Below, in pieces: positions 2,004 to 61,568 of a stretch of 64,000 nucleotides of DNA. The notes beneath the pieces were generated by a model. The model had not been told where the DNA came from and made no database searches. It worked only from the letters and a program-made list of their open reading frames with translations. The translations under genes were made by a program, and so were the position numbers. The DNA lies in NCBI GenBank assembly GCA_001798075.1, contig MGRG01000012.1:91852-155851 (forward strand), read 5' to 3'. Every line of letters begins with the position of its first letter. The first letter of the stretch is position 1. This DNA is from Deltaproteobacteria bacterium RIFCSPHIGHO2_01_FULL_43_49. Lineage in GTDB: Bacteria; UBA10199; SPLOWO2-01-44-7.

Positions 2004-2100
2004 AAAGCCTCTCTACAAGCGAGTCGTATAAAACATCTCGCGCTAAGTCAAATCATTTTGCCAAGCAACTTTTTTTGAATAGTGGCGATAGTATAGGTGT

Positions 2101-6954: not shown

Positions 6955-7064
6955 TTGATCTTACTTGATAATTTCCAACTAAAAAAAAATTTTAAAAAAT
7001 TTTAGCAACAAATTTAGAATTCTGCCGATAATAAGTGTAAGGGGATGAATTTTAGGAGGTTTAT

Positions 7065-11723: not shown

Positions 11724-11874
11724 AGCGAGTGGCTTGTATCTTAAACTCAAAAGGTAGTCACTACCTTTCTGTAAATTTTACCAAAAGGTAGCGTCTACCT
11801 TTTGATGATGCGCTGCAGCAATTTAATGCGGGCCACCTAGCAACATTCCTTACTTTCTGTCGATAAGGATAGTG

Positions 11875-27202: not shown

Positions 27203-27254
27203 AAGCCAAAAAGGTCATTATCTCAGTCTATGTAAGGAAGCAACTTTTTTGAAA

Positions 27255-27393
27255 AGGTGCCGATAGATTCCCGCGGGCAAGCCCGTGGTATTCTGGGTCT
27301 CGAGTTTTAGGGAATCTACCCAGCCGCCAAAGGCGGCGAGAGGGGGAGGCTCCATCCCCGCCTTGGCGGGGTGGAGGGGGCGACGCGAGCCCC
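27255..27393. repeat. GC-rich compound palindrome in a divergent intergenic region (candidate structured RNA or regulatory DNA)
   Basis: Nested inverted repeats: AGATTCCC...GGGAATCT enclosing CGGGC-AA-GCCCG, then GCCGCC-AAA-GGCGGC and CCCCGCC-TT-GGCGGGG; a TATAAT hexamer sits 10 nt before the downstream ATG. Confidence 0.4.
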
Positions 27394-29513: not shown

Positions 29514-29544
29514 ATACCGCACGGTACCAGGTACCTGGCGGTAT
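29514..29544. repeat. REP-like palindrome (ATACCGCACGGTACCAGGTACCTGGCGGTAT)
   Basis: Near-perfect 31-bp palindrome abutting the RAYT stop codon. Confidence 0.8.
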
Positions 29545-30206
29545 TAGAGAACCACTTTTATTCGATTTGCAAGCCCATTTACTTGGTTCACCATCGCCGA
29601 AACCCGGCGTGATGTTGTCGCCTTAGATTCTTCCAAGAGGTTATGAGTTTTATCGGAAGGCAGCGGCGTCATAACAAGTTCTCTGTAAACTCTTTTACGT
29701 TTTTCATCATCGTTCACTAGGCCAAGGTAAGAAGGATGAAATTCTAATAATTCGTTTGGTGTGCCAAATGCATAGTAGGTATAACCACTCCATAACCAAT
29801 CTTCTGGTCTGATTACAAGTCCAGCAGATAGGGAGTTTCTATGCTGATAACGTAAACAAGCTAACGCATAGCGATCATTAGGAATGATATTGCTTCGATA
29901 TCGATGGGCCCAAAAGTGCCCGATTCTGTTATGCCGCTGATTAAAATCTTTAGCATATTTTAAACAAAGTTCCTGCATGATTTGGTCGATAAAATATCCC
30001 GTATGGGTGGAGAGGAGGAGATGGATATGCGAATGAAGCAGTTCATAATTATAAAGCCTGAATGCAAACTTCTCTTTAACCGCAGCTAACATTTCCAAGA
30101 ATATTTTGAAGTCTTCTTCTGTCTGAAGCAAATGCTCTTTGTTATTACATCGCAAAATGGTGTGATAATGAATGTCATCACCTTTGATTCGTGGCGCTCT
30201 AGGCAT
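29544..30206 (-). CDS. REP-associated tyrosine transposase (IS200/IS605 Y1 HUH family)
   Basis: HUH motif HSHIHLLL, conserved Tyr region (HFWAHRYRS), typical ~220-aa size. Confidence 0.85.
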   Translation of the reverse strand: MPRAPRIKGDDIHYHTILRCNNKEHLLQTEEDFKIFLEMLAAVKEKFAFRLYNYELLHSHIHLLLSTHTGYFIDQIMQELCLKYAKDFNQRHNRIGHFWAHRYRSNIIPNDRYALACLRYQHRNSLSAGLVIRPEDWLWSGYTYYAFGTPNELLEFHPSYLGLVNDDEKRKRVYRELVMTPLPSDKTHNLLEESKATTSRRVSAMVNQVNGLANRIKVVL

Positions 30207-30224
30207 GGCAAAACTCCTTTCCCA

Positions 30225-30283
30225 CTTACCGTGTGGTACCTGGTACCAGGCGGTACCGTGGGGTACCTGGTACCGAGTGGTAA
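30225..30283. repeat. REP-like palindrome doublet
   Basis: GTGGTACCTGGTACCAGGCGGTACC followed by GTGGGGTACCTGGTACCGAGTGGTA, directly upstream of the RAYT start. Confidence 0.8.
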
Positions 30284-30383
30284 TGCGAAAGGCGTGCCAA
30301 AATGAAAGGCTTTAGTTTTCAATAGGTTAGATTTTTTGGGGGTGCTGCAACTGACGAAATATGAACAGGTGCCGACGGATTTT

Positions 30384-30963: not shown

Positions 30964-31234
30964 AACGTCCTCCTTTGTTGTACCAACATCAAATTACAGC
31001 AAATTGCGTGCCAAAACGTACGCACTTTTCGGGCCAGCCTCAGCATAAGAATTAGTTATGATTTTATTATGGTTTTTAGTTTCATTGAATTTTTACACAT
31101 GCTCAGAGCATCTCGGAATGGGTGAAAATGTACCATTTTTCTGCTGGAAACTTTTTTATTTTGGGGGCAACATTTCTATTGCTCAAAGTGTCATCAAAAT
31201 TTTGACGCTTTCCAATTTTATCTGACGATCAACA

Positions 31235-42211: not shown

Positions 42212-42300
42212 CTTGGTGAGTGGGTGGCCCGGAGTGTTTGTTGTGGGGTTTAGTTAGGGGCCCCCACAAAAACACGGAGGGACAGGCCCTACTCACCAAG
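42212..42300 (+). repeat. palindromic structured element, copy 1
   Basis: Conserved core TGGGTGGCCCGGAGTGTTTG.TGTGGGGTTTAGTTAGGGGCCCCCACA.AAACACGGAGGG.CAGG shared with 60460-60546; outer stem CTTGGTGAGT / ACTCACCAAG is complementary. Confidence 0.65.
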
Positions 42301-42305: not shown

Positions 42306-42335
42306 GAAGCAACATTTTTGGGGATTTGCCGATAA
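42306..42335 (+). promoter_or_regulatory. conserved 30-bp box (GAAGCAACATTTTTGGGGATTTGCCGATAA), candidate ECF-type promoter or operator
   Basis: 27 of 30 positions identical to 46416-46445; AAC at the -35-like position and CGA about 17 nt downstream. Confidence 0.35.
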
Positions 42336-42430
42336 GTATAGTGTGGCCGACGACCACTGAGACTCTAATTAGAATTGACACTCTGTGTCGGCACCCTTAA
42401 AATTCGATGCAAAAGAGGAATCATTCCAAA

Positions 42431-43951
42431 ATGTTACGACTCTCCATACCGGTCAAGGTCCTTTTGGCCGCAGGCTTTGGTTATGTTGCCATTCTTTTCG
42501 CGACCACCTGGGCCACTTTGGTTTACTCTCTCGACACTCAGGACCTCTGGCTGGGAATAAAAATTGAACATTGGTTTCTGATCGGAGAAATTTTCTTCGT
42601 CGTTTTAGTGGCCACCATTACCTCCTATTTTTTACTGGATCGTCCCTTGAACAAGTTGACCGAGATCATGAACAAGGCCGGAGAGGGAGATTTCTTAATC
42701 CGTGCTCCCAACAATCGCTCGGACGAAATCGGCATGTTGGCAGACAATTTTAATAAGATGCTAGCAAGAGTCACCGATCTCTCCGCCAACAAAATCCAGA
42801 CCGATCACGATTTGATCATTGTTCAAGAAGAGTTGAAGTACAAAAAGAGTTTAGAGGAGAAGACAAAACTTATTGAAAGGGCAAATCACACTCTCGAAAA
42901 TCTTGTCAAAGATTTATCCCTTCTTTACGAAATTGGGCAGAGTATTAACCAAACAATCGATCTAGAACAACTCTATCAAGTCATTGGAGATGTTTTGAAA
43001 CGCAATTTAAGGTTGAAAAATTTTTCTTTGATGGTTTGGAACGACAAACATCAAGTTTTAACCGTCAAAACGGTCTTCGGTTTTGAAAAAGACTCCAAAG
43101 TAAAACAGATGACATTCCAAGCAGGAGAGGGAATTGCCGGAGAAGTTTTGAAAACGGGAAAAACGATTTATGTTGGCGATGTAAAAAAGGAAACGCGCCT
43201 TGTTGAAAGGGGTCTTGAGTTATTGGGCTCCATATTGTCCGTGCCGTTAACCTATAAGGGTGAGACACTGGGTGTTATTAATTTTGGCAGAGACAAGACC
43301 TATTCTTTCACCAATCATGATGTGAAAATGCTGACCTTGGTTGCCAATCAGGTTGCCCTCGCGATGGCGAATGCCAGACTCTACACGCAAACCAGAGAAC
43401 TTTCCGTGACCGACGAACTGACCGGTGTTTTCAATCGCAGACACTTTGCGCAAGTTTTACAATTGGAGTGGAAAAGGGCAGTCCGTTTTAAACGAGAACT
43501 TTCTTTGCTTATGATCGATGTCGACTATTTCAAACGCTACAATGATACCTATGGGCATTTGAAAGGAGACGAGGCCTTAAAAGAAATTGGAAAGATACTG
43601 ATTGCCAATTTGCGTGAGGTTGATACCGTCGCCCGCTTTGGTGGGGAAGAATTTATTGTGCTCCTGCCCGATACCGATAAGCGTGGCGCTCAAGCGGTGG
43701 CTGAAAAATTAAGACATCTTGTTCAAGAAAAAATCGAAGCGATCACGATTAGTGTGGGAGTGGCAACGTATCCCGATGATGTGACCGAGATGGATGACTT
43801 GATTGACCATGCCGATATCGCTCTTTATAACGCCAAAGACAAAGGCCGCAACCGGGTGTTGACCTACACGGGCGGTAAACCCCCAGAATCTTTAAATCCC
43901 CCCTCCGAAGAAAAACAAGATTCCAACATCAAACCAAGGTTAGTGCATTAA
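42431..43951 (+). CDS. diguanylate cyclase with TM, HAMP and GAF regions
   Basis: GGEEF active-site motif (RFGGEEFIVLLPDTD); HAMP-like LNKLTEIMNKAGEGDFLIRAP; two N-terminal TM helices. ATG 42407 is an alternative start. Confidence 0.85.
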   Translation: MLRLSIPVKVLLAAGFGYVAILFATTWATLVYSLDTQDLWLGIKIEHWFLIGEIFFVVLVATITSYFLLDRPLNKLTEIMNKAGEGDFLIRAPNNRSDEIGMLADNFNKMLARVTDLSANKIQTDHDLIIVQEELKYKKSLEEKTKLIERANHTLENLVKDLSLLYEIGQSINQTIDLEQLYQVIGDVLKRNLRLKNFSLMVWNDKHQVLTVKTVFGFEKDSKVKQMTFQAGEGIAGEVLKTGKTIYVGDVKKETRLVERGLELLGSILSVPLTYKGETLGVINFGRDKTYSFTNHDVKMLTLVANQVALAMANARLYTQTRELSVTDELTGVFNRRHFAQVLQLEWKRAVRFKRELSLLMIDVDYFKRYNDTYGHLKGDEALKEIGKILIANLREVDTVARFGGEEFIVLLPDTDKRGAQAVAEKLRHLVQEKIEAITISVGVATYPDDVTEMDDLIDHADIALYNAKDKGRNRVLTYTGGKPPESLNPPSEEKQDSNIKPRLVH

Positions 43952-46243: not shown

Positions 46244-46415
46244 TTCAAAGAGGGCAAATCACAATAACTTATGAAAAGCCATGAAATTTTAAAATACATC
46301 GGATTTGGAACATAATGCTTTAAAACTTAGACATTCCGAACTGGTTTTGAATAAATTCTATTTATTTTTCAATGAGTTACCAATAAAATTTCTGGCCCAT
46401 TTTTTGTATGCTTTT

Positions 46416-46445
46416 GAAGCAACTTTTTTGAGGATTTGCCGAAAA
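46416..46445 (+). promoter_or_regulatory. conserved 30-bp box copy 2 (GAAGCAACTTTTTTGAGGATTTGCCGAAAA), candidate promoter of the four-gene operon
   Basis: 27 of 30 identical to 42306-42335; ends about 20 nt before the operon start codon, followed by RBS AGGAGAGG. Confidence 0.35.
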
Positions 46446-46465
46446 CAATTAGGAGAGGTTTTTTA

Positions 46466-48046
46466 ATGGCTGAGAAGTGTCAATTAATTAGTAAATTATC
46501 AGTGTCACCCTCCATACTGCTCGGTAGTTTTCTTTATGATATCAGCAAGTTAGGTGGAAATCCTGGGGAGCTAGACACCTGTGACCTAAAGGTTTTCCAA
46601 AAGGAATTGGGTATTTCTTTGCCCCAAAAAGCATTTCTCGACAAATTTGGAAAAGGGGATTCGTTTAAACTCATTGAAGCCTCTGAATTTCTTTATAATC
46701 AGTATTTATATGCCCCCAACAATAAATATTATGCGTTTTACCCCAAATATTTCAGCAATCAGACCCATGCGGATCTCGCAGAAGTGGCTCTTCGTGACCT
46801 AAAAACGACCCTGGAACCTATCGTCGAAGTAGGAGTCCTCAAAAAAATTCCTATCTACGAGCGCATCTTGAAAGAACCGGCCCTGGCAGAATGGCTTTCT
46901 GTTGATGAAAAAGAAAAAATTGGAGCAGACATTGCAAAAATTCGTGAACTTTTTGAAGAAAAGAACTGGAAAGACCTCTACCCCCGCATGGACACTTTTG
47001 AAGTATCTCTCCCTGATTTGTACGAGACGATTAGCCAACGAGCTCAGGATAACGTTAAATTTTGGGAAAGGGCTGTTGTTGCAACGGAAGTTGTTCACAA
47101 TGTGTTATTTATCGGGGCCGGTGTTGCAGTGGGAATCGTTGCTGGCCCTGTGGCAGCTGTTGGTGCGACACTGGCATTCGGTTTATCTTCCCTCGCCTCC
47201 GAAGAAACTGCCAAAGCTATTTCACAAGATGACTATACATGGCAAAATGCTTTGAAATCTTTTGGCTATCACGCACCGTTTGATATTATCAAAAGTGCCG
47301 CTTTCCTATTTCCGCCACTCAAGGCTGCAACCATCTTTGTGGGAGCCACTTTTGTGGAAGTTGCGGCAGACCCATTTGGAGAACCGAAACCTGTTGTTGA
47401 CCGTTTGATTGATGGAGGTTTTTCAGCTCTGGTTGCAGCGGCCACTTTTTTCGTTGGGAAAAAAGCCGGCGAAAAACTGGGGCCTTATTTTGCAAAATAT
47501 TTTAGAAGAGCCATCCAGCCAGTTCCGGAGTCACCTCAACTTGTCAGACCAACAGTTGTTGAAACTCGAACGGCTACTTCTCCCTCGCCACCTGTTGAAC
47601 CGCCTCCTCCAAAAATGGAAGTGGAGCCTGCACCGCCACCCCCCACCCCCAAACCAAAAAGGGTCGAAGCCAGACCCAAAAATGGTGGCCCTAATGGAGC
47701 ATCGCATTCAGAGAAGGTCTTGCACACCATCAAGAAAACACGATTTGCAGAAGATTGTTTTGAAAAGCTCACACCGTTGGTTAAAGGAAAAATGGAGGAG
47801 TTTGTTGCAACACTCGTTAATAAATTAAATTTCGGAGTTCCTATTGCAAAAATTGCTAATGTCATGCGGAACAAGGATTTCGCCGGTGTTTGGGAAGGAC
47901 GTTTCATGTCTGCTAGCAATGCGAGAGTCTATTTTAAAATCACCGATGATCCCAATGGTTCCAAAATAGTTGAGATTCTCGGTTATTCTTTAGGAGAAGC
48001 CGATCGCATTGCTATTTTACAGCATTTTGCTGGTGGGAGGCATTAA
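46466..48046 (+). CDS. operon gene 1: membrane-type protein with Gly/Ala-rich hydrophobic segments, Pro-rich linker and RelE/ParE-like C-terminal domain
   Basis: ATG 46466 with AGGAGAGG RBS; hydrophobic segments (VLFIGAGVAVGIVAGPVAAVGATLAFGL; FSALVAAATFFVG); linker SPSPPVEPPPPKMEVEPAPPPPTPKPK; C-terminus AGVWEGRFMSASNARVYFKITDDPNGSKIVEILGYS resembles the RelE/ParE toxin pattern. Confidence 0.6.
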   Translation: MAEKCQLISKLSVSPSILLGSFLYDISKLGGNPGELDTCDLKVFQKELGISLPQKAFLDKFGKGDSFKLIEASEFLYNQYLYAPNNKYYAFYPKYFSNQTHADLAEVALRDLKTTLEPIVEVGVLKKIPIYERILKEPALAEWLSVDEKEKIGADIAKIRELFEEKNWKDLYPRMDTFEVSLPDLYETISQRAQDNVKFWERAVVATEVVHNVLFIGAGVAVGIVAGPVAAVGATLAFGLSSLASEETAKAISQDDYTWQNALKSFGYHAPFDIIKSAAFLFPPLKAATIFVGATFVEVAADPFGEPKPVVDRLIDGGFSALVAAATFFVGKKAGEKLGPYFAKYFRRAIQPVPESPQLVRPTVVETRTATSPSPPVEPPPPKMEVEPAPPPPTPKPKRVEARPKNGGPNGASHSEKVLHTIKKTRFAEDCFEKLTPLVKGKMEEFVATLVNKLNFGVPIAKIANVMRNKDFAGVWEGRFMSASNARVYFKITDDPNGSKIVEILGYSLGEADRIAILQHFAGGRH

Positions 48047-50418
48047 TGACCACTATTAATTTTGGCTTTATTGAAGCAGCCATCACTGCAGCCCAGGCAG
48101 CCCAAGCGGCTTCTAATAGGGCTGAATTAGATGCCGCATTGGAAAAATTGGGGAGGGCGATCCATCCCCTGGATACCTTTGCTGATGGCAATCTATCCCC
48201 CTTGGTGGAAAGGCTGACGAGTGGTAGAAGAGCTGTCACTGAAGCAGAACTGAATCAAGTTATCAGGACTATCAACGATGCCGGGGATAAATACCGGGCA
48301 AGTTCAGGCACAAAGGAATCAAAAGCCAGCAGTGCGCACACAGGGCACGGTGTTCATGGAAGCCCCAATCCTTATCTTATTCAAGTAGGTCAGTCTAAAA
48401 CTTTTTCCCCGCGCCCTAACCAAGCCTACATCGCACGGAAAGCAGTGAGCCATTTTAGAGAAGAACACAGAGGTTTTTTTCGCCTCGATACAGGTGAGGG
48501 TAAAACACCAACATACGGATTCATCATTCAAGAACTTCGCAAAGAACTTCCCGATGAATACCAAGAGGCACTTGTTGTCATGGGTTGCCATCAAGCAGAA
48601 CCCGCTCGCAAATTGGCAGAGACGATGAAACATATGTTTCGTGATGAAAAAATCATGTTTTTAGAGGGAGGTATTGAAGCAGAAGATTTTAAAAGAGTTA
48701 CTTTTGTGGTGGGGACCTATCAACAACTAGCACAAAAATCGAGTATTGACGTTTTGAAAGAATGGGCTGGTCAAAAAAGAATTCTTTTTGTCTTGGATGA
48801 AGCGGACATGGTTGTTTTCAAAGGTATTGCAGAAGATGAACATCGAATGGCTACTTGGATTCGTCTCTTGATCGACTTTGGAGTCTTTACACAACATGGG
48901 CATTATCTTGCCAGAACACGGCATCGACTGTTGGGGGCCTCTGCAACCCTTGATCGCCCTGATGAAATTTCTCTCTCAACTGTTTGGGGTCCTGGAAATG
49001 TTTTCTATCATACACCGATGGCAGAGGGGGTTCGGCGCGGCACTCTTGTGCCCGTGGTTGGTCATGTCTTAGAAATGGATGTTCCAGAAAAAGAAAAACA
49101 TCTCTTCAGGGATTTTACGAAGATTGTGGATGGTAAGATTGTGGTTGATAAAACAAAAGTGATGTCTGCCTGCGGCAGTGATCATGCTGTTAAAACATCG
49201 GTTCGAGCTGTGATCGATCATATGAAGATGAAGATTGGTGCTGGAACGACAAAGGGTGAAGCAGTGCGGCGTGGGATCGGTTATGCCATGGACACCACTG
49301 CCTTGGAAAAACACATGCGCTGGCAGCAAGAATTATTTGGGTTGGTAGAGGTTATTTTCCAAATTTATCAAGGCTTGGCTGCATCAAAACCAATGCATGT
49401 TGATACAATCCTCGCTCATCTTGGTGGTCTGGAGAAACTAGATGCGTTTGGTCAAACTTTAAAACGGTTTCTCTATGCTAGAGAATGGAAAACGGTGGAA
49501 TCCCTTTACAGAAAGGCGGTCAGTTCTTTAAAAAATGGGAGAAAAGAAGGTATTTCGGAATTGTTCACTACTCTCTATTCTATTTTGAATGTTGATGTTC
49601 GCAGAATCAAAGGAAGACCTTTGGTGGCCACGGCTGTCTGGCAAAGTATGGACATGGATCGTGAAGGCAAAAAAATTCCTCGTGAGGCTCGTCGCACTCA
49701 ATATCTCAACAAATTTGGTGATCGGGAACTAACGATGAAGGGCTTCAATGCTGGGGTGATCGACATGCTCTGGAGCATTGGGATGTTGGACAGAGGTTTC
49801 GACGAACCGATGGCAAGCTTAATTGTTGATAATGCCCCTAGTTCATCGAGAAGAGAAGTGGTGCAAAGGGCAGGCCGTATCATGCGACCACCCGACCCCA
49901 AAAATCCTAAAGATCATAGTCAAAAACCAGAATCTATTTATATTACACTGACACCCAATTTGGAAGCCCACCATCTCGATGTGGCCAGAAAAGATTTAGC
50001 CCGAGTTTTTGGTACCGAAGTAGATCCTGAGCTCAATATCATTAAGATTCGCCCTACCAAAGAAGGGGATTTTGAGTGGCGTACTCCCGATCCTGTTCAA
50101 CTTGATTTGGGAGGTGATAAAAAAGTCCATTTAGTGTTGGTTGGGGCTAGAACCGTGGAGGCATTGGTTCATTTTTTAAAAGGACGTTATGGGAAAGATT
50201 ATGATCCCGAAATTTTGGCCTTCGATGCCGGTGTTGGGGTTGAAGAAGTTGATGATTTATTGCGGGCCATTCGTTTTCCCAAGGAATCCAGATTACGTGC
50301 CTTTTTAAAAAATTGGCGTGCCGATGATGCAACAATCCACCAAATCATGGCAATCTATCACTCCGATCTTGCCGACATGAAAACGGTCTATGGTAACGCC
50401 TGGAGGATTGTGCAATGA
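48046..50418 (+). CDS. operon gene 2: SF2 helicase / ResIII-type ATPase
   Basis: Motif I LDTGEGKT (about 48490), motif II LDEADM (about 48796), motif III SAT (about 48934), motif VI QRAGRIMRP (about 49861). Start overlaps the gene 1 stop by 1 nt. Confidence 0.75.
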   Translation: MTTINFGFIEAAITAAQAAQAASNRAELDAALEKLGRAIHPLDTFADGNLSPLVERLTSGRRAVTEAELNQVIRTINDAGDKYRASSGTKESKASSAHTGHGVHGSPNPYLIQVGQSKTFSPRPNQAYIARKAVSHFREEHRGFFRLDTGEGKTPTYGFIIQELRKELPDEYQEALVVMGCHQAEPARKLAETMKHMFRDEKIMFLEGGIEAEDFKRVTFVVGTYQQLAQKSSIDVLKEWAGQKRILFVLDEADMVVFKGIAEDEHRMATWIRLLIDFGVFTQHGHYLARTRHRLLGASATLDRPDEISLSTVWGPGNVFYHTPMAEGVRRGTLVPVVGHVLEMDVPEKEKHLFRDFTKIVDGKIVVDKTKVMSACGSDHAVKTSVRAVIDHMKMKIGAGTTKGEAVRRGIGYAMDTTALEKHMRWQQELFGLVEVIFQIYQGLAASKPMHVDTILAHLGGLEKLDAFGQTLKRFLYAREWKTVESLYRKAVSSLKNGRKEGISELFTTLYSILNVDVRRIKGRPLVATAVWQSMDMDREGKKIPREARRTQYLNKFGDRELTMKGFNAGVIDMLWSIGMLDRGFDEPMASLIVDNAPSSSRREVVQRAGRIMRPPDPKNPKDHSQKPESIYITLTPNLEAHHLDVARKDLARVFGTEVDPELNIIKIRPTKEGDFEWRTPDPVQLDLGGDKKVHLVLVGARTVEALVHFLKGRYGKDYDPEILAFDAGVGVEEVDDLLRAIRFPKESRLRAFLKNWRADDATIHQIMAIYHSDLADMKTVYGNAWRIVQ

Positions 50419-51725
50419 GTGTAAGTGTTGTCACTCCTGCAGGATATGTTACCGGCCTACTTGGTAATCTGGAGACCCTAAGTGTTGCCGGTCAAGAATC
50501 AGACATTGCAGAGGTCTTAAACGATTTATTTCCTCAAGTAGATCGTCTTGGTAATGCTGAACTTGGACAGCGTTTAAAAAAAGTAGCAACCGCGTTGCAA
50601 AATGGTGATTATAAAAGAACTCAATGGTTACAATCTTCATTATATCGTGAACTCACTGATCTTCAAGCAGCACTCCAAAGTGGTCAAGCTATTGAAGAGG
50701 CATTGCAAGCAAGACAAGCTGCTCAAGCGTTAAAAAAAATAGAAGGACCAGGCGGCGGGCGATTTACCTCTTCCATTACTGCAAGACCAGTTCAAAGAGT
50801 TTCTGTTGGACCACCACCAGTCATTGAATGGGAGAAGTTTGGATCTAGAAGGTATCCTGCACCGCTCCCCCCAAGTGAAGAGGTGAATACAGCGGGCAGA
50901 CGATTGGCTTATGTTGTCAGTTACGTTGCCGGAATGGCAGGTCATGGGGAATTCACGGCTGATACAGAAGATTTTTATAGCATCAGTTCTGAGATGCGCA
51001 GACGTATCGAAAAAGCGTTATTCGTTCCCAAAGCATTGGGCCAGTTTCCAACACGGGATGCAAGATCGATTATTATCAAAGCCCATCAATTAGAGCCGCT
51101 TTATGGAAGATTAGTTCAAGAACTTCTGATCCAATCTATTTTTGAATCACAGGGTTGGTCGTTGGGCGTTCCACTCTCCGATGCCCCGTGGGATCTCTCT
51201 TTTTTGTATGCCTTGAGACGCTATGGTGCGATGCAGTTGTTGGCCTCCGAAGAGAAAGCAAAAGAAGTGTCGGAAGACAAAGCGCTCATTCGCGTTGTGC
51301 AAGGCAAAGTCAGTTTGGAAGCGGTGAACTGGCATCCAGGCAAAACCCGTCGCGAAGTTTTTGAGCCTTGGTTACAAGGGATAGCCAGCAGAAATGGTAA
51401 CAATGAAAAACTTTTAGAGAGACAACGCAAATATATTGGCGATGGAATTTTGCGTGCAACAAATTGGCAGCCTCCTCGCAATGGCGCTGGTTGGGAGCCG
51501 CAACTCCAATGGATGGTCAGGCGCTGGATTGCCCATTTTCATTTTGGTGCTTTGCCGGCCCGGGGACTTCCATTTAAAACCGATGTGATCATTCGTTTTG
51601 CAATGGCGAAACACCCAACAAAACTAGATTTAACTTTTGCGAGAGCTTTGTTGGCCATGATGCGTGATTATTATTCAAAGGCAGAATTACAAGCCATGGG
51701 GGATTTTATACCGAGGGATAAATGA
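50415..51725 (+). CDS. operon gene 3: hypothetical protein (436 aa)
   Basis: 4-nt overlap (ATGA) with the helicase stop; no recognisable motif. Confidence 0.6.
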   Translation: MSVSVVTPAGYVTGLLGNLETLSVAGQESDIAEVLNDLFPQVDRLGNAELGQRLKKVATALQNGDYKRTQWLQSSLYRELTDLQAALQSGQAIEEALQARQAAQALKKIEGPGGGRFTSSITARPVQRVSVGPPPVIEWEKFGSRRYPAPLPPSEEVNTAGRRLAYVVSYVAGMAGHGEFTADTEDFYSISSEMRRRIEKALFVPKALGQFPTRDARSIIIKAHQLEPLYGRLVQELLIQSIFESQGWSLGVPLSDAPWDLSFLYALRRYGAMQLLASEEKAKEVSEDKALIRVVQGKVSLEAVNWHPGKTRREVFEPWLQGIASRNGNNEKLLERQRKYIGDGILRATNWQPPRNGAGWEPQLQWMVRRWIAHFHFGALPARGLPFKTDVIIRFAMAKHPTKLDLTFARALLAMMRDYYSKAELQAMGDFIPRDK

Positions 51726-54700
51726 GTATTGTTATCTCAAGGGGTTTAGCAGCACTTCAGTCTCAGATGGCAGAAGGTCTTGCCCGACTAACAGCTGACA
51801 ATGCCGCACTTTTTCAACCAGATTCTTCGTCTTCTTATGAAAACCCTGCTTTGTTAGCTGCGCAACGTTACACAAAAGAAGAACCAAGGAAAATTTCGCC
51901 CGGCATTTTCCTTCACGACATGCACGGGGCCTTGAAAAAAGTTGCCGGTTCTCGTTTCGTTGCTAAAACTCCAGAGAATGAAGACAAAGCATTTTTAAGG
52001 GCTATCGTGGGTGGTCTTTCCCTCTTTTTGGGGAAAATGGACGCGCAAAGTGAAACAGAGATTGCAGGAATGGTAGATCAAGTAATCTCGCAGATTGCAG
52101 ACCCTGCCATTCAAAAGCTTATTTTGGGTGCCGGCATTGCATTGCCAACTTCTTCCACAACGTCTGTAGCTGTTTCAGCTCCTTTAACGGTCTTGCCACC
52201 TGTTGTAGCCGCACCACAACCTCCTGCTCCAACTGTTGCTGCTCCTATCACGACAACTCTTACCCCTTTTGACTATCATCCAAACAGTGAAGAGAGGTTG
52301 GATGCTGAGTTTGAATATCGTCTCGCGAATGTTCACCAGCGCATTCAAGATGCAAATATTTCCTGGCCCTATGATTTTGTCAGATGGTGTCGCTCCCTTT
52401 ATCTTTTGGCAGGTGAGTTGCCAAATGGAGATGCAGCAAGGGTACGTGGAAATATCACCCGTGGTTTAAGAAGAATCAACGAGTTAGCCTCCATCAGTGT
52501 CGAAGATATTCGTCGCCTGTTAGGTCCTTCTGCGATGGCAGTGGGTCGTTACCCCGAAGGAATTTCGCAAGATTGGCCACGAGATATATCCAATGATTTT
52601 GGTTCTGCCATTATTGCTGTCCACGATGTCGGTGAAACTGTCATTGCCAACAAAGCAGCCCTCCTCTGGAAGGCAAGCACTGGCTTAGAAAATCAAGATG
52701 AGATTAGAGGTGATTTGGTTTCGATCCTGCGTCGTTTCGAAATAGCTTTGTTATCGGGAAGAGAAACAGATCATGAGGAAATAGAAAAAGCGCTTGATGA
52801 AATTGCGTTGAAAATTCCGGAAGCCAAACGCCCGGAAATGTTCTTAAAGAAAGAAACAGTACCACAGCCTTCACCCATCCCGTTAGAACCCATGTCGCAA
52901 GCAGAGTGGGTACAAAAAAGTTTGGATTTTTTGGTTTATGAAAAATCAAAATGGGGAAGTATGGAAGGAGAACTCTCCAATCAATTAGAGCATCTTTTTA
53001 AATTATTGAAAGTCGAAGAGGCTTTAGCACCACGTGCACCAGAGCTGTTGGGATTGGCATTTCAACTGATGTTATCTTATCGCCAGATGGTGGGGGTATC
53101 CGGAATAGAAGCTTTGGCATTGGGTAAAGATCCCAGCCTACCGATCAGTTTTGAAGACAGGGCTAAAGCCTTTGACATGATGAAGGCTGCCCACAACCAG
53201 CTCGATCTTCTTCAAGAGTGGGGTGATGCCTATAATAAAGATCCAAAAGCTTATCAACCGTTGTTCGGTGAAAATGGTCTTGCCGAAATAGTCTCTCGCT
53301 ACATCGTTCATGCTCGAGGAGGATCCCAAAACCCACTTGAAGAAGCGAGTGGAAATTTTGTTCAAGCACACCCTGAGTTGAAACTTTCAACTGCTATGGC
53401 CCGCAGGTTACTATCCTATTTTGTTGGGCTAACAGATGGAACTTTTAACGAGGCTTTCTTACAAGAAGTGTTAGGGGCCAAACCTAAGGCTCAAGAAGCG
53501 GCTGGACCAGAGCTTGATTTAGAAAATACCCCATTTTTGGATGTTGATCCAAATAAATACACTCCCTATGGGCGCGTTTTTGGAAAAGTTGTTCTGGATG
53601 GAGGAGTCATCCGAGTAGGCGGTGGCAAAAATAGACCTGGGATCTTTTTTGGGATTTATTTGACAACCTTAGAAAAGATTTACCGAAAATACCGTGAACA
53701 AGTTCGCACATCCGGTAGCAGTAGTTTCGAGTCGGCCTATACATTGGCCGTGAAGCAGGAAAAATATCAAGAAAGATATAGAAAAGACTATGAAAAATTG
53801 TTTGGGGATCTTCTTAGATTGCTGGGTGAAAATAAGGATATGGCCGATTTGGTGGAAACAGCAATTTTGTCTGGTAAGACTCAGTTAAAGGTACCTGAAA
53901 AGCAAGCAATACCTACAAGTGGCGGCCCTCCCATGGAACGACCTGTGGAAGAGGCGCCTACTGCAGCGCTAGCGCCAACACCAGCTCCAGTTTCAGTACC
54001 ACCATCGGTTGAAGTATCGAGACCAGCTGCAACAAGGGTTGATGAAGCCGTCTTTGCCGGTGCCGCACTCGTTTCACCCGATGCTCCTCCTGCCGAAGCT
54101 AACCCCTTTATCGAAGCAGCTGCAATAGTATCAGAGTTTGTTCCACCCCCAGCAGAGGTAGTTGTATCTTCAGGAGTTGCCGTAGTCGAAGTGCCACCAC
54201 CTGTTGAAACAGCGACAATTCCAGCGATCGAAGAAGAAATATTAATTGTAGATGAAGTAGAGGTAGAAACATTTCCAGCGATTCTAGCCCCCTATATTAC
54301 TAAATGGTCCCTGGGTGAAGTTGAGAAAAAAGTATTGCAAGATATGTGCGCGGTAACTTCACCAGAAGCTGTTTTGAAAGCTCTGGATAATATTGAACAA
54401 AACAGTTGGGAGAGTGAGGAGCGAAAAAGAAAGATTCTGACAGAATATGCAAGGGCTTTAGAACTTGGAAGAATAACAGAGAGAGGTAAAAAAAGAGTTG
54501 TAGAGCTTCTGGCCTCTAAGGAAAATTTTGGGAGGGTGAGACTTCTCCTATCTGTTGCCGCTGCAAAACCGACCAGTCTGGTTTTGGATCAGATTATTCC
54601 AGACCCCATTCAGTTGGGCAAAAAGGGGGGGCGATATCTAGATATTGACTTTAAATCTTACCCTCCTGTAGCTGTGGTTCGGCCTGCAATCACTCTTGCA

Positions 54701-57145
54701 GAAGGATTATACGAAGAAATAGCCGTCATGCCGAGTGGGCGTTCCGTATTGATTAGAGGACCTTTTAAAGGGGATGCCATTGATATCGGAATAGATCACG
54801 GGCAGCTCCAGAAAGGGATCGGTGGTCTTTTAGGTGAATTGGCAAGGGCTCAAGGGGCCATTGAAAGTGGCGCGCGAACCTCTCTCTTGCTCCTCGTTTT
54901 TAACGAAAATGGCATGACACCGCGTGCCCGAAAATACTTTTTTAGCCAGCACCCTCAAGGCACTTTGATTGAATGGTATGGAAACACTTTTAGTCGGTGG
55001 TCTTTAGAAAAATATGACGATGAAATTATGCTGCAGGAAACCCGTTTTGATAGAGAAGGGAATAAAATTTCTGAAAAACTTAATTCTATTGAAACATTCG
55101 AAGGAGAAGTAGAAGTTCATTTTGTTACAGCCAATGATCGCAATCCCCACACGGAACGCCTGATAGAAAAACCAACCACGCGAGCAATTGAAGATTTAAG
55201 GGCGATGGGAGAATCCAAAGAAGCGATTCGTTTGAAAGTTGTTCGGGATGCGGCCATTAACGCCGTCGGTTTTCTCAATCCCAATCACCCCGATGCAGAT
55301 AAAGTCATCGAAGTGGCTAAGAAGTTTGGTCAATCTCGTCTTAGTAAGAGACAAATTGTTGAATTGAAAGAGGAGCTGGATGCAGTTGTCATTGAAATAG
55401 AACATCGCTTTGACTCCACAATACCTCCTAAAGCTGTCGAATTGGCAGCCCTTGTGGGTGTAGAAAAATTAACTCAGTTGCTGACAATAAAAGGAATCTC
55501 TTCTGAAAATGTCGATGAATTGATCCATCACCTCTTGGTTTTAAAAACCAAGTTCAATGGAGAAGTCATTGTCAAAATAGTCGATCAATTGTTGGAAGTG
55601 AGTACAAAAAATCTCGCCCACTTTACAACACTTCTCAACCGCCTTGCTCAACTAGAAAGACTAGTAAGACAACGGGGTTTAAACATCACCGATATCACTT
55701 TAAAACCAGAAACCCTTTATGGTGGATGGGCCCTGACTTTGGATGGAAAGGTCATCTTGATCGGTTCTACTAAGGGGGAACCTTTTCATGTCCCATTCCC
55801 ATTGGGCGGGACAATGAAACAGGCTGAAGGGATTGCCGGAGCTTTAGCTCCCAATTTCGAAAGGGTAGAAGATGCGATTTTAGAAGGGAATGTGAGTGGC
55901 TTGCTTTTAATGTTGGTTGGAGAAGATGGAATTACCGAGCAAGGTAGAGACTCACTTTGGACAACCTTTGGATCCGATGCAGAAGTCTGGGTTCTCAAAA
56001 TAACCAATGATCAACAGGCCGATCATTATATCTTCAAAAAGAATAAAGAGGGCCCTTTGGCCGAATCGCTGGGAGAAGAAATTTATGAGGTGATCTCCTT
56101 TGCTCGTGAAGAAGAAGAAATTAAAATTGAAAAACTGGAACGAAAAGAAAGCCGTCAGGTCGTCAGTCCACTTTTGCTTGCAAAAAGAATTCTCGGTGTT
56201 GTGAAGCCCAAACCTTCTCCAGAGGGTGCACCAGCAAAGAAGCGTTGGGAACACATTGACGCGGATTTTGCAAAAATCTTTGCTGATCATGAGGTTACTG
56301 CACAACAAATTTGGGGACCTTTGAGCGAAATTGTGAATGATGAACGTGTTTTGAAAAAAGGAGATGCATTTATTGATTTGATGGAGTTTGCCGATCAGTT
56401 AAATGGAACCTTTGAAGCTCATTTAATGCCAATGAGTGCCTTGGCAACGGGAATTCAAATTGGAGAGCCCGTTTTTCCGGGAATAGACTTGCTCAAATGG
56501 AGAGATTTAATCGAAACTTCGACATTAGGAATCCAAGAAGCACTGTTTGATCTTAGTGACACAGAAGAAGAGGGAATCGCAAAAATCGTAAAGATTCCCC
56601 AACATCTGCATGAGTTTCATCTTTTGCTTCATCAGATTTTGATGGTTGAACTAAACGGTTATCGCAACCTCCTTAATCGGTTAGACAGTGTGAAGGCTTC
56701 AAGCGACATCCCGCCCGATTTGGCAAGACAAAAGGAATTGATTGAAACACTTCGAGGGCGTGCTGCAGATTTGGGAAAATACCTGGGGGCCGATTTCTTT
56801 AAAGAGCTCAATAAGATTCGGACCATCATGCAAAACAGAATCAATTACTTTAATGAAGTGTTGAAACCCAAGATTTTTGAATTTCAAACGAGGGATGATT
56901 TGGAGCTTCCTTCTTCGAATCCAATAACATCCGACCTCTATGCTTTTGTGGATAAATATGGTTTTAAACGGGGAAGGGAGGCAGAGCATGGAGTTCTCTT
57001 TGTAAATCCAGCTACAGGAATAACCGTAAATCTGCCCTACGACGATAAAGGTCTTGATCCACGCACGATGAAAAACTCCAGATCGGATGCTATAAAAGCT
57101 GTCGAAGAATCTTTGCGTAAAGAAGGCCGCATGCCCCCTGCTTAG
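51722..57145 (+). CDS. operon gene 4: giant hypothetical protein (1,807 aa) with Pro/Ala/Val-rich linkers and an internally duplicated ~95-aa module
   Basis: 4-nt overlap with gene 3; low-complexity linker at about 53910-54250; paired modules at about 54730-54990 and 55740-56000 share GxxxLLxLVxExGxT; no catalytic motif recognised. Confidence 0.65.
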   Translation: MSIVISRGLAALQSQMAEGLARLTADNAALFQPDSSSSYENPALLAAQRYTKEEPRKISPGIFLHDMHGALKKVAGSRFVAKTPENEDKAFLRAIVGGLSLFLGKMDAQSETEIAGMVDQVISQIADPAIQKLILGAGIALPTSSTTSVAVSAPLTVLPPVVAAPQPPAPTVAAPITTTLTPFDYHPNSEERLDAEFEYRLANVHQRIQDANISWPYDFVRWCRSLYLLAGELPNGDAARVRGNITRGLRRINELASISVEDIRRLLGPSAMAVGRYPEGISQDWPRDISNDFGSAIIAVHDVGETVIANKAALLWKASTGLENQDEIRGDLVSILRRFEIALLSGRETDHEEIEKALDEIALKIPEAKRPEMFLKKETVPQPSPIPLEPMSQAEWVQKSLDFLVYEKSKWGSMEGELSNQLEHLFKLLKVEEALAPRAPELLGLAFQLMLSYRQMVGVSGIEALALGKDPSLPISFEDRAKAFDMMKAAHNQLDLLQEWGDAYNKDPKAYQPLFGENGLAEIVSRYIVHARGGSQNPLEEASGNFVQAHPELKLSTAMARRLLSYFVGLTDGTFNEAFLQEVLGAKPKAQEAAGPELDLENTPFLDVDPNKYTPYGRVFGKVVLDGGVIRVGGGKNRPGIFFGIYLTTLEKIYRKYREQVRTSGSSSFESAYTLAVKQEKYQERYRKDYEKLFGDLLRLLGENKDMADLVETAILSGKTQLKVPEKQAIPTSGGPPMERPVEEAPTAALAPTPAPVSVPPSVEVSRPAATRVDEAVFAGAALVSPDAPPAEANPFIEAAAIVSEFVPPPAEVVVSSGVAVVEVPPPVETATIPAIEEEILIVDEVEVETFPAILAPYITKWSLGEVEKKVLQDMCAVTSPEAVLKALDNIEQNSWESEERKRKILTEYARALELGRITERGKKRVVELLASKENFGRVRLLLSVAAAKPTSLVLDQIIPDPIQLGKKGGRYLDIDFKSYPPVAVVRPAITLAEGLYEEIAVMPSGRSVLIRGPFKGDAIDIGIDHGQLQKGIGGLLGELARAQGAIESGARTSLLLLVFNENGMTPRARKYFFSQHPQGTLIEWYGNTFSRWSLEKYDDEIMLQETRFDREGNKISEKLNSIETFEGEVEVHFVTANDRNPHTERLIEKPTTRAIEDLRAMGESKEAIRLKVVRDAAINAVGFLNPNHPDADKVIEVAKKFGQSRLSKRQIVELKEELDAVVIEIEHRFDSTIPPKAVELAALVGVEKLTQLLTIKGISSENVDELIHHLLVLKTKFNGEVIVKIVDQLLEVSTKNLAHFTTLLNRLAQLERLVRQRGLNITDITLKPETLYGGWALTLDGKVILIGSTKGEPFHVPFPLGGTMKQAEGIAGALAPNFERVEDAILEGNVSGLLLMLVGEDGITEQGRDSLWTTFGSDAEVWVLKITNDQQADHYIFKKNKEGPLAESLGEEIYEVISFAREEEEIKIEKLERKESRQVVSPLLLAKRILGVVKPKPSPEGAPAKKRWEHIDADFAKIFADHEVTAQQIWGPLSEIVNDERVLKKGDAFIDLMEFADQLNGTFEAHLMPMSALATGIQIGEPVFPGIDLLKWRDLIETSTLGIQEALFDLSDTEEEGIAKIVKIPQHLHEFHLLLHQILMVELNGYRNLLNRLDSVKASSDIPPDLARQKELIETLRGRAADLGKYLGADFFKELNKIRTIMQNRINYFNEVLKPKIFEFQTRDDLELPSSNPITSDLYAFVDKYGFKRGREAEHGVLFVNPATGITVNLPYDDKGLDPRTMKNSRSDAIKAVEESLRKEGRMPPA

Positions 57146-57573
57146 GCCTTTTCCCTTTTGGCGAGGTAGTCCAACACAGATTTGGCAAAGAGTTCGAAGT
57201 CGCTTAGATGTTGCTTAAGAACGCTATAAATTTCTTTGTCATCCGTTTCCCAATAAAGATGCACCAAGCGGTTTCTCATTTTTGCCATTTTTCGCAATTT
57301 TGTGAGAAAGCCCTCGGTGACCACTCCATTTTCCACGAGTACTTTAAAGCTGTCGGCATAGTCCTTTGGCGCTCTAAAGCCAAATCTGGAGATGAGATGG
57401 TTTGTCAAATCAAGACATGTCTCTAAAGCATATTGGAGATTGAGGCGAGCGCTGTCTTTTTTCATCGCATCTTTTAGGAAATCAGCCTCAGAAAATGCGC
57501 CGAGTTCTTTCAACTTTAAAACATATTGACGAAGCCGATCTACGAGCATTGTTACTTTTTTTATATCAACCAT
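57142..57573 (-). CDS. hepT: HepT-like (DUF86) toxin
   Basis: Rx4HxY motif (RNRLVHLY) near the C-terminus; overlaps the upstream MNT gene by 8 nt. Confidence 0.8.
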   Translation of the reverse strand: MVDIKKVTMLVDRLRQYVLKLKELGAFSEADFLKDAMKKDSARLNLQYALETCLDLTNHLISRFGFRAPKDYADSFKVLVENGVVTEGFLTKLRKMAKMRNRLVHLYWETDDKEIYSVLKQHLSDFELFAKSVLDYLAKREKA

Positions 57574-61505: not shown

Positions 61506-61568
61506 TTTTGTTCAGAAGCAACTTTTTTGGCGCCCCGCCGAAGAACCCATCAGAAAGGTCTTATTTCC

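What the first reader, a model, noticed from the sequence alone, without database searches (positions are those of the whole stretch)
42306..42335. Conserved 30-bp upstream box shared by the GGDEF gene and the four-gene operon
GAAGCAACATTTTTGGGGATTTGCCGATAA (42306-42335) and GAAGCAACTTTTTTGAGGATTTGCCGAAAA (46416-46445) are identical at 27 of 30 positions, while the flanks are unrelated. Both lie upstream of plus-strand transcription units. The layout (AAC, then about 17 nt, then CGA) loosely resembles ECF sigma-factor promoters. This predicts co-regulation of a c-di-GMP synthase and the candidate system by one sigma factor or regulator.
Basis: seen in the sequence. Interest (0 to 1): 0.6.

Follow-up and report, generated by a model that had tools for sequence, protein, structure and literature searches.

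The report
Clade-wide alternative sigma-factor promoter box
The 30-bp box is real, but it is not a private link between the two genes: it is one promoter type (AAGCAAC, T-run, 14-nt spacer, GCCGATAA), probably read by one alternative sigma factor, that precedes at least nine transcription units here and the same genes in related uncultured groundwater bacteria.

Summary
Observation confirmed: the two 30-mers (42306-42335, 46416-46445) match at 27/30 and the similarity stops at their ends. They are the two most similar copies of a bipartite motif, cAAGCAAC-TTTTTT-N8-GcCGATAA. The motif occurs 9-10 times in the 83 kb I could read (about 0.8 expected by chance). Every copy is intergenic, has a fixed 14-nt spacer and points at a downstream gene or a short terminated transcript.

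Both boxes are conserved by descent. A box-1 equivalent precedes the GGDEF orthologue in 5 of 5 sister lineages (54-70% aa identity, genome GC 40-60%). A box-2 equivalent precedes the orthologous operon in 3 of 3 lineages. CAAC and CGA are invariant in 20/20 sites while spacer sequence drifts.

The -10 half equals the sigma-28 (FliA/WhiG) consensus GCCGATAA, with the same geometry as the P. aeruginosa fliC promoter. The -35 half (AAC plus T-tract) looks like an ECF promoter. Ordinary sigma-70 and sigma-54 promoters also exist here, so this is a distinct, very dense alternative-sigma regulon: genes without known families, c-di-GMP signalling genes and candidate small RNAs.

The sigma factor itself could not be reached. 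I lean sigma-28 family (0.5) over ECF (0.33). This is a new variant of a known kind, of moderate interest.

The parts
42306..42335 (+). Box 1. -35 element AAGCAAC at 42307-42313, T-tract and spacer at 42314-42327 (14 nt), -10 element GCCGATAA at 42328-42335. Predicted +1 near G 42343.
   Evidence: Geometry matches (-36)TCTAAAG(-30)-N14-(-15)GCCGATAA(-8) of P. aeruginosa fliC. Conserved upstream of GGDEF orthologues in L208-L212.
42375..42403 (+). Second, sigma-70-type promoter (P2) of the GGDEF gene: TTGACA-N17-TAAAAT, 11/12 match.
   Evidence: Conserved in L209. Distant orthologues L001 and L002 have only this type of promoter.
42431..43951 (+). HAMP-GAF-GGDEF diguanylate cyclase gene. It is annotated from ATG 42407, but ATG 42431 with RBS AAGAGGA is the more likely start because P2 would initiate downstream of 42407.
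   Evidence: Pfam. A 506-aa version is called in other assemblies. Promoter position.
46416..46445 (+). Box 2. -35 element AAGCAAC at 46417-46423, 14-nt spacer, -10 element GCCGAAAA at 46438-46445. Predicted +1 near G 46453, at the 5' edge of the Shine-Dalgarno AGGAGAGG.
   Evidence: Equivalents precede the orthologous operon or gene in L208, L213 and L214.
46466..57145 (+). Four-gene operon driven by box 2: orphan 526-aa protein, SF2 helicase of 790 aa, unknown 436 aa, unknown 1807 aa. With the HepT/MNT pair (57142-58015) it forms an insertion of about 11.8 kb relative to sister genome L210.
2062..2091 (+). Further copy: CAAGCAAC-TTTTTTTGAATAGT-GGCGATAG. ATG 2101 lies 2 nt after the predicted +1, so the mRNA is probably leaderless. 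The gene (257 aa) has no Pfam family.
7002..7031 (+). Further copy: TTAGCAAC-AAATTTAGAATTCT-GCCGATAA, 33 nt before ATG 7065 (111-aa protein, no Pfam family).
11837..11866 (+). Further copy: CTAGCAAC-ATTCCTTACTTTCT-GTCGATAA. ATG 11875 follows the predicted +1 (G 11874) directly, so the mRNA is probably leaderless. It encodes a 1099-aa lipoprotein-like CarboxypepD_reg protein and precedes a + strand cluster running to about 20667.
27237..27266 (+). Further copy: GAAGCAAC-TTTTTTGAAAAGGT-GCCGATAG, with a 142-nt GC-rich leader before ATG 27409 (261 aa, no Pfam family).
61515..61544 (+). Weak or possible copy: GAAGCAAC-TTTTTTGGCGCCCC-GCCGAAGA. It lies inside the annotated 5' end of the peptidase M20 gene, 24 nt upstream of an in-frame ATG at 61569.
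   Evidence: (20 bits against 30-41 for the others).

Best explanation
Each box is a promoter read by RNA polymerase carrying one alternative sigma factor, most probably a sigma-28 (FliA/WhiG) family member whose -35 specificity has shifted from TAAA to GCAAC. Sigma region 4 would bind AAGCAAC (about -36 to -30). The T-tract at -29 to -24 would shape the spacer. Regions 2 and 3 would bind the extended -10 GCCGATAA (-15 to -8), flipping out the invariant A of CGA. Transcription would start about 8 nt downstream, near 42343 for the GGDEF gene and near 46453 for the operon. When this sigma factor is active, the c-di-GMP synthase, the helicase operon and at least seven neighbouring units are switched on together. 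Those units are mostly proteins with no known family, plus two short terminated transcripts. The GGDEF gene additionally keeps a sigma-70 promoter for basal expression. Shown here: motif, copy number, intergenic and co-oriented placement, fixed spacing, and conservation at orthologous loci. Inferred: that it is a promoter, the start sites, and the identity of the sigma factor.
For: (1) There are 9 strong copies plus 1 weak in 82.7 kb against 0.8 expected. All are in the 10.6% of sequence that is non-coding (P about 2e-9), all point at a downstream gene, and the spacer is always 14 nt. (2) Footprint for box 1: the GGDEF orthologue has GCAAC/ACAAC-N14-nnCGATA in 5 of 5 sister lineages at 70, 67, 62, 57 and 54% aa identity, with genome GC from 40 to 60%. 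The spacer sequence is not conserved, and each match has chance P <= 0.007. (3) Footprint for box 2: the same holds in front of the orthologous operon in L208, L213 and L214, in different genomic contexts. (4) L137, about 75% nt identical, keeps 27/29 of the promoter at the -5144 site while the sequence just upstream is unalignable. (5) In 20 sites not ascertained by the metagenome pattern, CAAC and CGA are invariant. (6) The -10 equals the sigma-28 consensus GCCGATAA, and the heptamer-N14-octamer geometry equals that of P. aeruginosa fliC in the solved open complex (PMC12784957). Within the sigma-28 family the central CGA is conserved while the -35 differs between clades: T(A/C)AA against CTCA (PMC12871210). 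(7) With sigma-28 numbering, the predicted +1 is a G preceded by T at 5 of 9 sites. At two sites the ATG starts 1-2 nt after it, which fits leaderless mRNAs. (8) Sigma-70-type (TTGACA-N17-TAnnnT) and sigma-54-type promoters serve the housekeeping operons here, so this is a separate class. (9) A large non-flagellar sigma-28 regulon that includes small RNAs has a precedent in Bdellovibrio, with TTAAG-N16-CCGATA at 92 of 140 attack-phase promoters (PMC3627812). (10) In a metagenome scan, positions the pattern left free are enriched for the motif (GC before CGATA in 26% of hits against about 5% expected). Downstream genes there include two PilZ proteins, kinases and many proteins without a family.
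Against: The -35 element (AAGCAAC) shares only the two A's with sigma-28 -35 elements (TAAAG, TCTAAAG, TTAAG). AAC plus a T-tract is the hallmark of ECF promoters. No flagellar, chemotaxis or fliA/flgM gene was found behind any copy, nor anywhere in the 2.4 Mb fetched. It is unknown whether the organism has a flagellum or a FliA homologue. There are no transcript data, so start sites are predictions. All copies in the window and in the sister loci lie on one strand (7/18 against 0/18 upstream regions, p = 0.008), and a simple regulon model does not predict that.
Confidence: 0.5

Rival explanations
1. The box is a promoter for an ECF (group 4) sigma factor. Sigma region 4 would read GCAAC (the 'AAC' motif), the T-tract would bend the spacer, and region 2 would read CGA(TAA).
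For: ECF promoters typically have AAC in the -35, a homopolymeric T-tract at -26 to -29, and short -10 elements such as CGTA, CGTC or CGAC. Examples are sigmaW tGAAACnTTTt...CGTA, sigmaV GCAAAC...CGTC and sigmaX ...CGAC (PMC5758882). Here aGCAACnTTTTT sits at the same position, and AAC-N16-CGA has the sigmaW spacing.
Against: The -10 is an eight-base element with a conserved G at -15 and TAA after CGA. It is identical to the sigma-28 consensus and longer than the ECF elements described. Density is about 1 per 9 kb, which extrapolates to hundreds of promoters per genome, well above the usual size of ECF regulons (own knowledge). No sigma/anti-sigma operon was found behind a motif copy. The ECF genes in L128, L155 and L166 are not downstream of their motif hits, though this sample is small.
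Confidence: 0.33
2. The box is an operator for a DNA-binding transcription factor (activator or repressor), not a sigma recognition site.
For: The conserved intergenic motif is shared by several genes. The GGDEF gene has an independent sigma-70 promoter downstream, so an upstream activator site is conceivable there.
Against: The motif is asymmetric, being neither palindromic nor a direct repeat. It has two blocks at a fixed 14-nt spacing typical of -35/-10 pairs. It always has one orientation relative to the gene. It lies 5-40 nt from most start codons, leaving no room for a separate promoter. Two ATGs coincide with the predicted +1. Most sites have no sigma-70-like promoter nearby.
Confidence: 0.06
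3. The box is a variant housekeeping promoter, or a fragment of a dispersed or mobile repeat (REP/MITE) with no specific regulatory meaning.
For: There are many copies. A 75-nt palindromic REP-like element abuts box 1 and the -357 copy.
Against: Canonical sigma-70 promoters serve carD, valS, HepT/MNT and others. Only the two blocks are conserved, and flanks and spacer are not. Most copies lack the REP-like element, and one REP copy (60463-60537) has no box. The boxes are conserved at orthologous positions across lineages with 54-70% protein identity and 40-60% GC, which dispersed repeats would not be.
Confidence: 0.04

Closest known systems
Sigma-28 (FliA/SigD) class-3 flagellar promoters, e.g. 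P. aeruginosa fliC: TCTAAAG-N14-GCCGATAA (PMC12784957)
   Same: The -10 octamer is identical, including the extended -10 GC and the CGA core. The architecture is the same: heptamer, 14-nt spacer, octamer. A/T-rich sequence follows the -35, as in E. coli TAAAGTTT (own knowledge for the E. coli consensus).
   Different: The -35 is AAGCAAC instead of TCTAAAG/TAAAG. No flagellar or chemotaxis genes were seen behind it. Promoter density is far higher.
Bdellovibrio bacteriovorus attack-phase FliA regulon: TTAAG-N16-CCGATA (PMC3627812)
   Same: A sigma-28-type -10 drives a large, mostly non-flagellar regulon of uncharacterised proteins and small RNAs in a 'deltaproteobacterial' lineage, alongside c-di-GMP biology.
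   Different: The -35 differs (TTAAG against GCAAC). The Bdellovibrio motif was mapped by 5' end sequencing, whereas here there are no transcript data and no evidence of a predatory lifestyle.
WhiG (sigma-28 family) promoters of Actinomycetota: T(A/C)AA-N16-GCCGATAA and CTCA-N16-17-GCCGAACT (PMC12871210)
   Same: This shows that within the sigma-28 family the -10 CGA core stays fixed while the -35 changes between clades, and that regulons diversify beyond flagella. There is a link to c-di-GMP signalling.
   Different: WhiG activity is controlled by c-di-GMP through RsiG. Here the only link is that a GGDEF gene (and PilZ genes in relatives) lies downstream of the motif.
ECF promoters with a -35-proximal T-tract: B. 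subtilis sigmaW tGAAACnTTTt-CGTA, sigmaV GCAAAC-CGTC, sigmaX CGAC (PMC5758882)
   Same: An AAC-containing -35, a homopolymeric T-tract at the same position, AAC-N16-CG spacing, and close adherence to consensus.
   Different: The -10 here is the eight-base GCCGATAA instead of a four-base CGTx. No autoregulated sigma operon was found. The apparent regulon is much larger.

Membership tests
Sigma-28 (FliA/WhiG) dependent promoter | -10 element GCCGATAA with conserved central CGA | tested here: met
   Box 1 matches 8/8 and box 2 matches 7/8. CGA is invariant in 20/20 sites, with T and A after it in 19/20 and G at -15 in 16/20. Consensus taken from PMC12784957 and PMC12871210.
Sigma-28 (FliA/WhiG) dependent promoter | -35 element TAAA / TCTAAAG / T(A/C)AA | tested here: not met
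   The -35 is AAGCAAC, and only the AA dinucleotide aligns with TCTAAAG. The family does tolerate -35 changes (WhiG1 CTCA), so this lowers the membership claim without excluding it.
Sigma-28 (FliA/WhiG) dependent promoter | Spacing: -35 heptamer, 14 nt, -10 octamer (equivalent to TAAA-N15-GCCGATAA) | tested here: met
   The spacer is exactly 14 nt in all 20 sites, the same as P. aeruginosa fliC.
Sigma-28 (FliA/WhiG) dependent promoter | A sigma-28-family sigma factor encoded by the genome | not testable with these tools
   Only about 83 kb of the 175-kb contig could be read. tblastn with approximate FliA, RpoE and SigW sequences found no candidate in the clade's loci.
Sigma-28 (FliA/WhiG) dependent promoter | Regulon contains late flagellar and chemotaxis genes | tested here: inconclusive
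   None was found among about 45 downstream genes examined. The sample is small, and non-flagellar sigma-28 regulons exist.
Sigma-28 (FliA/WhiG) dependent promoter | Transcription start about 8 nt downstream of the -10 octamer | not testable with these tools
   No transcript data. Indirect support: T-G at -1/+1 in 5 of 9 sites, and two ATGs 1-2 nt after the predicted +1.
ECF (group 4) sigma promoter | [quoted passage not shown] | tested here: met
   CAAC is invariant in 20/20 sites. Feature defined in PMC5758882.
ECF (group 4) sigma promoter | -35-proximal homopolymeric T-tract (about -29 to -26) | tested here: met
   T is present in 80-85% of sites at five consecutive positions right after CAAC. 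The feature is not universal among ECF groups.
ECF (group 4) sigma promoter | Short group-specific -10 such as CGT(A/C) or CGAC | tested here: inconclusive
   The CG core is present and CGA occurs in sigmaX promoters. However, the conserved element here spans eight bases and matches sigma-28.
ECF (group 4) sigma promoter | Autoregulated sigma/anti-sigma operon preceded by the motif | tested here: inconclusive
   Not found in the sequence available. ECF genes in L128, L155 and L166 are not downstream of motif copies. The organism's own sigma genes were out of reach.
Dispersed repeat (REP/MITE) | Conservation along the whole unit including flanks, palindromic structure, no fixed relation to gene starts | tested here: not met
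   Similarity is limited to 30 nt and only two blocks are conserved. Copies always point at a gene start and are conserved at orthologous loci.

The most novel reading that the evidence does not exclude
An uncultured groundwater lineage (NCBI 'Deltaproteobacteria bacterium RIFCSPLOWO2_01_44_7' and relatives spanning 40-60% GC) uses a sigma factor of hybrid specificity, with an ECF-like -35 and a sigma-28 -10, as a second global sigma. It would drive several hundred promoters, about one per 9 kb. These would serve proteins with no known family, c-di-GMP makers and receivers, small RNAs, leaderless mRNAs and even mobile islands that carry the promoter with them. That would be a Bdellovibrio-like two-programme life cycle in a clade where none has been described.
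Probability: 0.3. Interest if true: 0.6.

Novelty: new variant of a known kind. Interest (0 to 1): 0.45.

Why it matters
The motif gives a sequence-only handle on a whole regulon in a lineage known only from metagenomes. Any gene behind cAAGCAAC-T6-N8-GcCGATAA can be assigned to one co-expressed programme. This immediately groups dozens of proteins with no known family, a diguanylate cyclase, PilZ receptors, candidate small RNAs and a helicase-containing island of unknown function. It also offers a natural example of how promoter specificity drifts in the sigma-28/ECF part of the sigma-70 family: the -10 is kept and the -35 is replaced. For the specific finding, it corrects the inference. Shared regulation of the GGDEF gene and the operon is likely, but it is not evidence of a functional partnership between them.

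Tried and rejected
1. Sigma-54 reading of GG...GC inside the box: the spacing is wrong. Genuine TGGCAC-N5-TTGC sites exist elsewhere.

2. The A/T-rich TATAGT-like hexamer just after CGATAA as a sigma-70 -10: no usable -35 lies at 16-18 nt, and the hexamer is absent at several sites.

3. Riboswitch or known RNA in the leaders: Rfam found nothing in the window, and only a tRNA in the flank. The box-1 leader folds no better than shuffles (z = -0.3).

4. Finding the sigma factor or flagellar genes: tblastn with approximate FliA, FliC, RpoE, SigW and RpoD sequences against 2.4 Mb of fetched loci gave nothing relevant.

5. Footprinting box 2 through the first operon gene failed because that protein has no detectable homologue among 5.8 billion proteins. 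I used the helicase instead.

6. The genome-contig scan with the GGDEF protein reached only distant relatives (47% identity or less) that lack the box.

About half of its 118 hits look like chance matches inside genes.

8. PADLOC: the operon is not a known defence system, with only a weak PbeA-like helicase match.

9. Taxonomy beyond the NCBI label could not be resolved. My recollection that these MAGs fall in GTDB phylum UBA10199 is unverified.

Full report
**Observation.** They are identical at 27/30, and none of 100 shuffles gave two matches. The repeat finder delimits the similarity to exactly these 30 nt. Both are intergenic and upstream of + strand genes. The first gene is a HAMP-GAF-GGDEF protein. 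The second unit is a four-gene operon: an orphan 526-aa protein, an SF2 helicase, and unknown proteins of 436 and 1807 aa.

**The pair is not unique.** The 3' end of box 1, GCCGATAA, occurs once more in the window at 7024-7031, again 14 nt downstream of AGCAAC and just upstream of a gene. A search for AGCAAC-N14-nnCGATA with at most one mismatch was run over the window plus the roughly 9 kb I could fetch on each side (82.7 kb in total). It found nine strong copies against 0.8 expected. In window coordinates of the 30-mer start they are -5144, -4212, -357, 2062, 7002, 11837, 27237, 42306 and 46416, with a weak copy at 61515. All nine lie in the 10.6% of the sequence that is non-coding, all have a 14-nt spacer, and all point at a downstream gene or a short terminated transcript. 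Pairwise identity among copies runs from 16 to 27 of 30. Box 1 and box 2 are simply the closest pair, followed by pairs at 26 and 25.

**It is a distinct promoter class.** The organism has ordinary sigma-70-type promoters. Examples are TTGACG-N17-TATAAG before carD, TTGACA-N17-TAGATT before valS and TTGAAA-N16-TATAAT before HepT/MNT. It also has textbook sigma-54 sites: TGGCAC-N5-TTGC at 3396-3410 and 30999-31013, and a one-mismatch site at 30285-30299. The housekeeping operons use those promoters. The boxed units mostly encode proteins without a Pfam family. The GGDEF gene has both kinds. A TTGACA-N17-TAAAAT promoter (11/12 match) sits at 42375-42403, between box 1 and the start codon. This also argues that the true start codon is ATG 42431 and not 42407.

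**Source and relatives.** The window comes from NCBI MAG GCA_001798515.1, contig MGSO01000008.1. The organism is labelled 'Deltaproteobacteria bacterium RIFCSPLOWO2_01_44_7', with sibling assemblies, and also occurs in JGI and ENA groundwater assemblies.

**Metagenome scan.** Positions the pattern left free are enriched for the motif: GC before CGATA in 26% of hits (about 5% expected), T after CAAC in 59%, and A after CGATA in 51%. About 40 hits are intergenic and followed by an RBS and ATG. They come from contigs of 37-57% GC. Downstream genes are mostly without a Pfam family. Those with a family include two PilZ proteins, an FHA protein, a Ser/Thr kinase, a cNMP-binding histidine kinase and an FGE-sulfatase-like protein.

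**Phylogenetic footprints, the decisive evidence.**
- *Box 1.* The GGDEF protein has full-length orthologues from 71% down to 50% identity, with SpoIID-GGDEF synteny conserved. In five of five sister lineages the intergenic region contains one copy of the motif on the coding strand:
  - L209 (70%): CTAGCAAC-TTTTTTAAAAAAGC-GACGATAA
  - L208 (67%): GACACAAC-TTTTTGGAAAGGCT-GCCGATAA
  - L210 (62%): TAAGCAAC-ATTTTTGTGCCATT-GACGATAA
  - L211 (57%, GC 40%): CACGCAAC-TATTTTTAAAAATT-GCCGATAT
  - L212 (54%, GC 60%): CGAGCAAC-AATTTCGACGTGGC-ACCGATAA

  Each match has a chance probability of 0.007 or less. More distant orthologues (47%) have only the sigma-70-type promoter.
- *Box 2.* L208 has CACGCAAC-TTTTTTGAAGAAGT-CCCGATAA in the same syntenic slot, 9 nt before an ORF weakly homologous to operon gene 1. 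Orthologous helicase operons in other genomic contexts are preceded by GGCGCAAC-N14-ATCGATAG (L213) and AAAGCAAC-N14-GCCGATGA (L214).
- *Small-RNA site.* L137, about 75% nt identical, keeps 27/29 of the promoter at the -5144 site, while the sequence immediately upstream is unalignable.
- *Consensus.* Across 20 sites not ascertained by the metagenome pattern, the consensus is cAAGCAAC-TTTTTT-gaAaatnT-GcCGATAA, with CAAC and CGA invariant.

**What kind of promoter?**
- *The -10 half is sigma-28-like.* It is the sigma-28 consensus. In the P. aeruginosa sigma-28 open complex the fliC promoter is (-36)TCTAAAG(-30), a 14-nt spacer, then (-15)GCCGATAA(-8), with GC as the extended -10 and A-11 flipped out (PMC12784957). 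That is exactly the geometry found here.
- *The -35 can vary in that family.* The central CGA is conserved while the -35 differs between clades: T(A/C)AA for WhiG2 and CTCA for WhiG1. Regulons have also diversified beyond flagella (PMC12871210).
- *A large regulon has precedent.* In Bdellovibrio, TTAAG-N16-CCGATA marks 92 of 140 attack-phase promoters, including small RNAs and many uncharacterised genes (PMC3627812).
- *The -35 half is ECF-like.* AAC followed by a homopolymeric T-tract at about -29 to -26 is what Gaballa et al. describe for ECF promoters: sigmaW tGAAACnTTTt...CGTA, sigmaV GCAAAC...CGTC and sigmaX ...CGAC (PMC5758882).

The element is therefore a chimera in sequence terms. I lean to a sigma-28-family factor for three reasons: the -10 match is eight bases long, the geometry is identical, and the regulon is far denser than typical ECF regulons (about 1 site per 9 kb here and in the sister loci). 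The ECF reading remains a serious rival. I could not reach any sigma or flagellar gene of this organism.

**Predicted mechanics.** With sigma-28 numbering, +1 falls 8 nt after the octamer.
- *Box 1:* G 42343. This gives an 88-nt leader that itself contains the sigma-70 promoter P2.
- *Box 2:* G 46453. This gives a 13-nt leader that starts at the Shine-Dalgarno sequence.
- *Start-site context:* at five of nine sites the predicted +1 is a G preceded by T.
- *Leaderless mRNAs:* at 2062 and 11837 the ATG begins 1-2 nt after the predicted +1. The second encodes a protein with a lipoprotein-type signal peptide starting at that ATG.
- *Short transcripts:* the two copies in the upstream flank are followed by about 105 nt and about 55 nt ending in strong hairpin-plus-T-run terminators. 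Neither has an Rfam match.

**Context of the operon.** In sister genome L210 the flavoprotein gene directly follows, and overlaps, the aminotransferase-CoaD-RsmD genes. In the window, about 11.8 kb (box 2, the four genes and HepT/MNT) is inserted between them. L208 has the insertion's left end. L213 and L214 carry the operon elsewhere, each with the motif. So the operon behaves as an island circulating within this clade and carries the clade's promoter type with it. It is not a recognised defence system.

**Verdict.**
- The promoter interpretation is strongly supported by inference, through placement, architecture and deep conservation.
- Co-regulation of the two units is likely but not exclusive to them.
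- The sigma factor's family is unresolved between sigma-28-like (favoured) and ECF.
- Unexplained: every copy in the window and in the sister loci is on the same strand (p = 0.008), although other metagenome contigs have copies on both strands.

Noticed in passing
window 42213-42289; also 60463-60537. Further copies lie about 380-450 nt upstream of the window start and about 7.9 kb past its end (L087, L089).: A GC-rich imperfect palindrome of about 75 nt (…GGTGAGTGGGTGGCCCGGAGTGTTTGTTGTGGGGTTTAGTTAGGGGCCCCCACAAAAACACGGAGGGACAGGCCC…) occurs four times in 83 kb at 87-96% identity. It is REP/MITE-like. It abuts box 1 and one other motif copy but is not part of the promoter.
   Followed up: partly
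window 3396-3410 (-), 30999-31013 (-), 30285-30299 (-): Sigma-54-type promoters (TGGCAC-N5-TTGC; the third has one mismatch). They lie upstream of - strand genes encoding an ORF6N-domain protein, a 172-aa unknown and a Y1 transposase-like protein. Matches at up to one mismatch number 13 against 5 expected.
   Followed up: partly
window 46244-58065: The four-gene operon plus the HepT/MNT toxin-antitoxin pair is an insertion of about 11.8 kb. It splits an aminotransferase-flavoprotein operon that is contiguous in sister genome L210. Orthologous operons sit in other contexts in L213 and L214.
   Followed up: partly
window 46466-48046: The first operon protein (526 aa) has no detectable homologue among 5.8 billion proteins. 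The only similarity found is a weak N-terminal match to the syntenic ORF in L208. The helicase has just 13 orthologues at 41-57% identity.
   Followed up: partly
L087 17000-17146 (-) and 16120-16214 (-), i.e. about 5.1 and 4.2 kb upstream of the window start: Two motif copies are followed by short ORF-free stretches of about 105 and about 55 nt that end in strong intrinsic terminators. These are candidate small RNAs with no Rfam family. The first is partly conserved in L137.
   Followed up: partly
L087 about 16950-16975 (-), aligned with L137: A sigma-54-like element (TTGGCTCTAAATTTGCA) upstream of the 122-aa ORF that follows the first candidate small RNA is perfectly conserved between the two species.
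   Followed up: no
window 2099-2103 and 11874-11877: The start codons of the 257-aa and 1099-aa proteins lie 1-2 nt after the predicted transcription start. These are probably leaderless mRNAs.
   Followed up: partly
window 42407 against 42431; 61500 against 61569: The start codons are probably called too far upstream. For the GGDEF gene, sigma-70 P2 would initiate after 42407. For peptidase M20, a weak motif copy lies inside the annotated 5' end, and an in-frame ATG follows at 61569.
   Followed up: partly
whole window and sister loci L208-L212: All motif copies lie on the + strand, which is the strand with positive GC skew. The split is 7/18 against 0/18 upstream regions, p = 0.008. This is not explained.
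   Followed up: partly
window about 30210-30330 (upstream of the - strand gene 29544-30206): Repeated GGTACC-containing units (ggtaccaggtacc…cggtacc) lie next to the sigma-54-like site upstream of the Y1 transposase-like gene. They may be an enhancer-binding-protein site or a transposon end.
   Followed up: no
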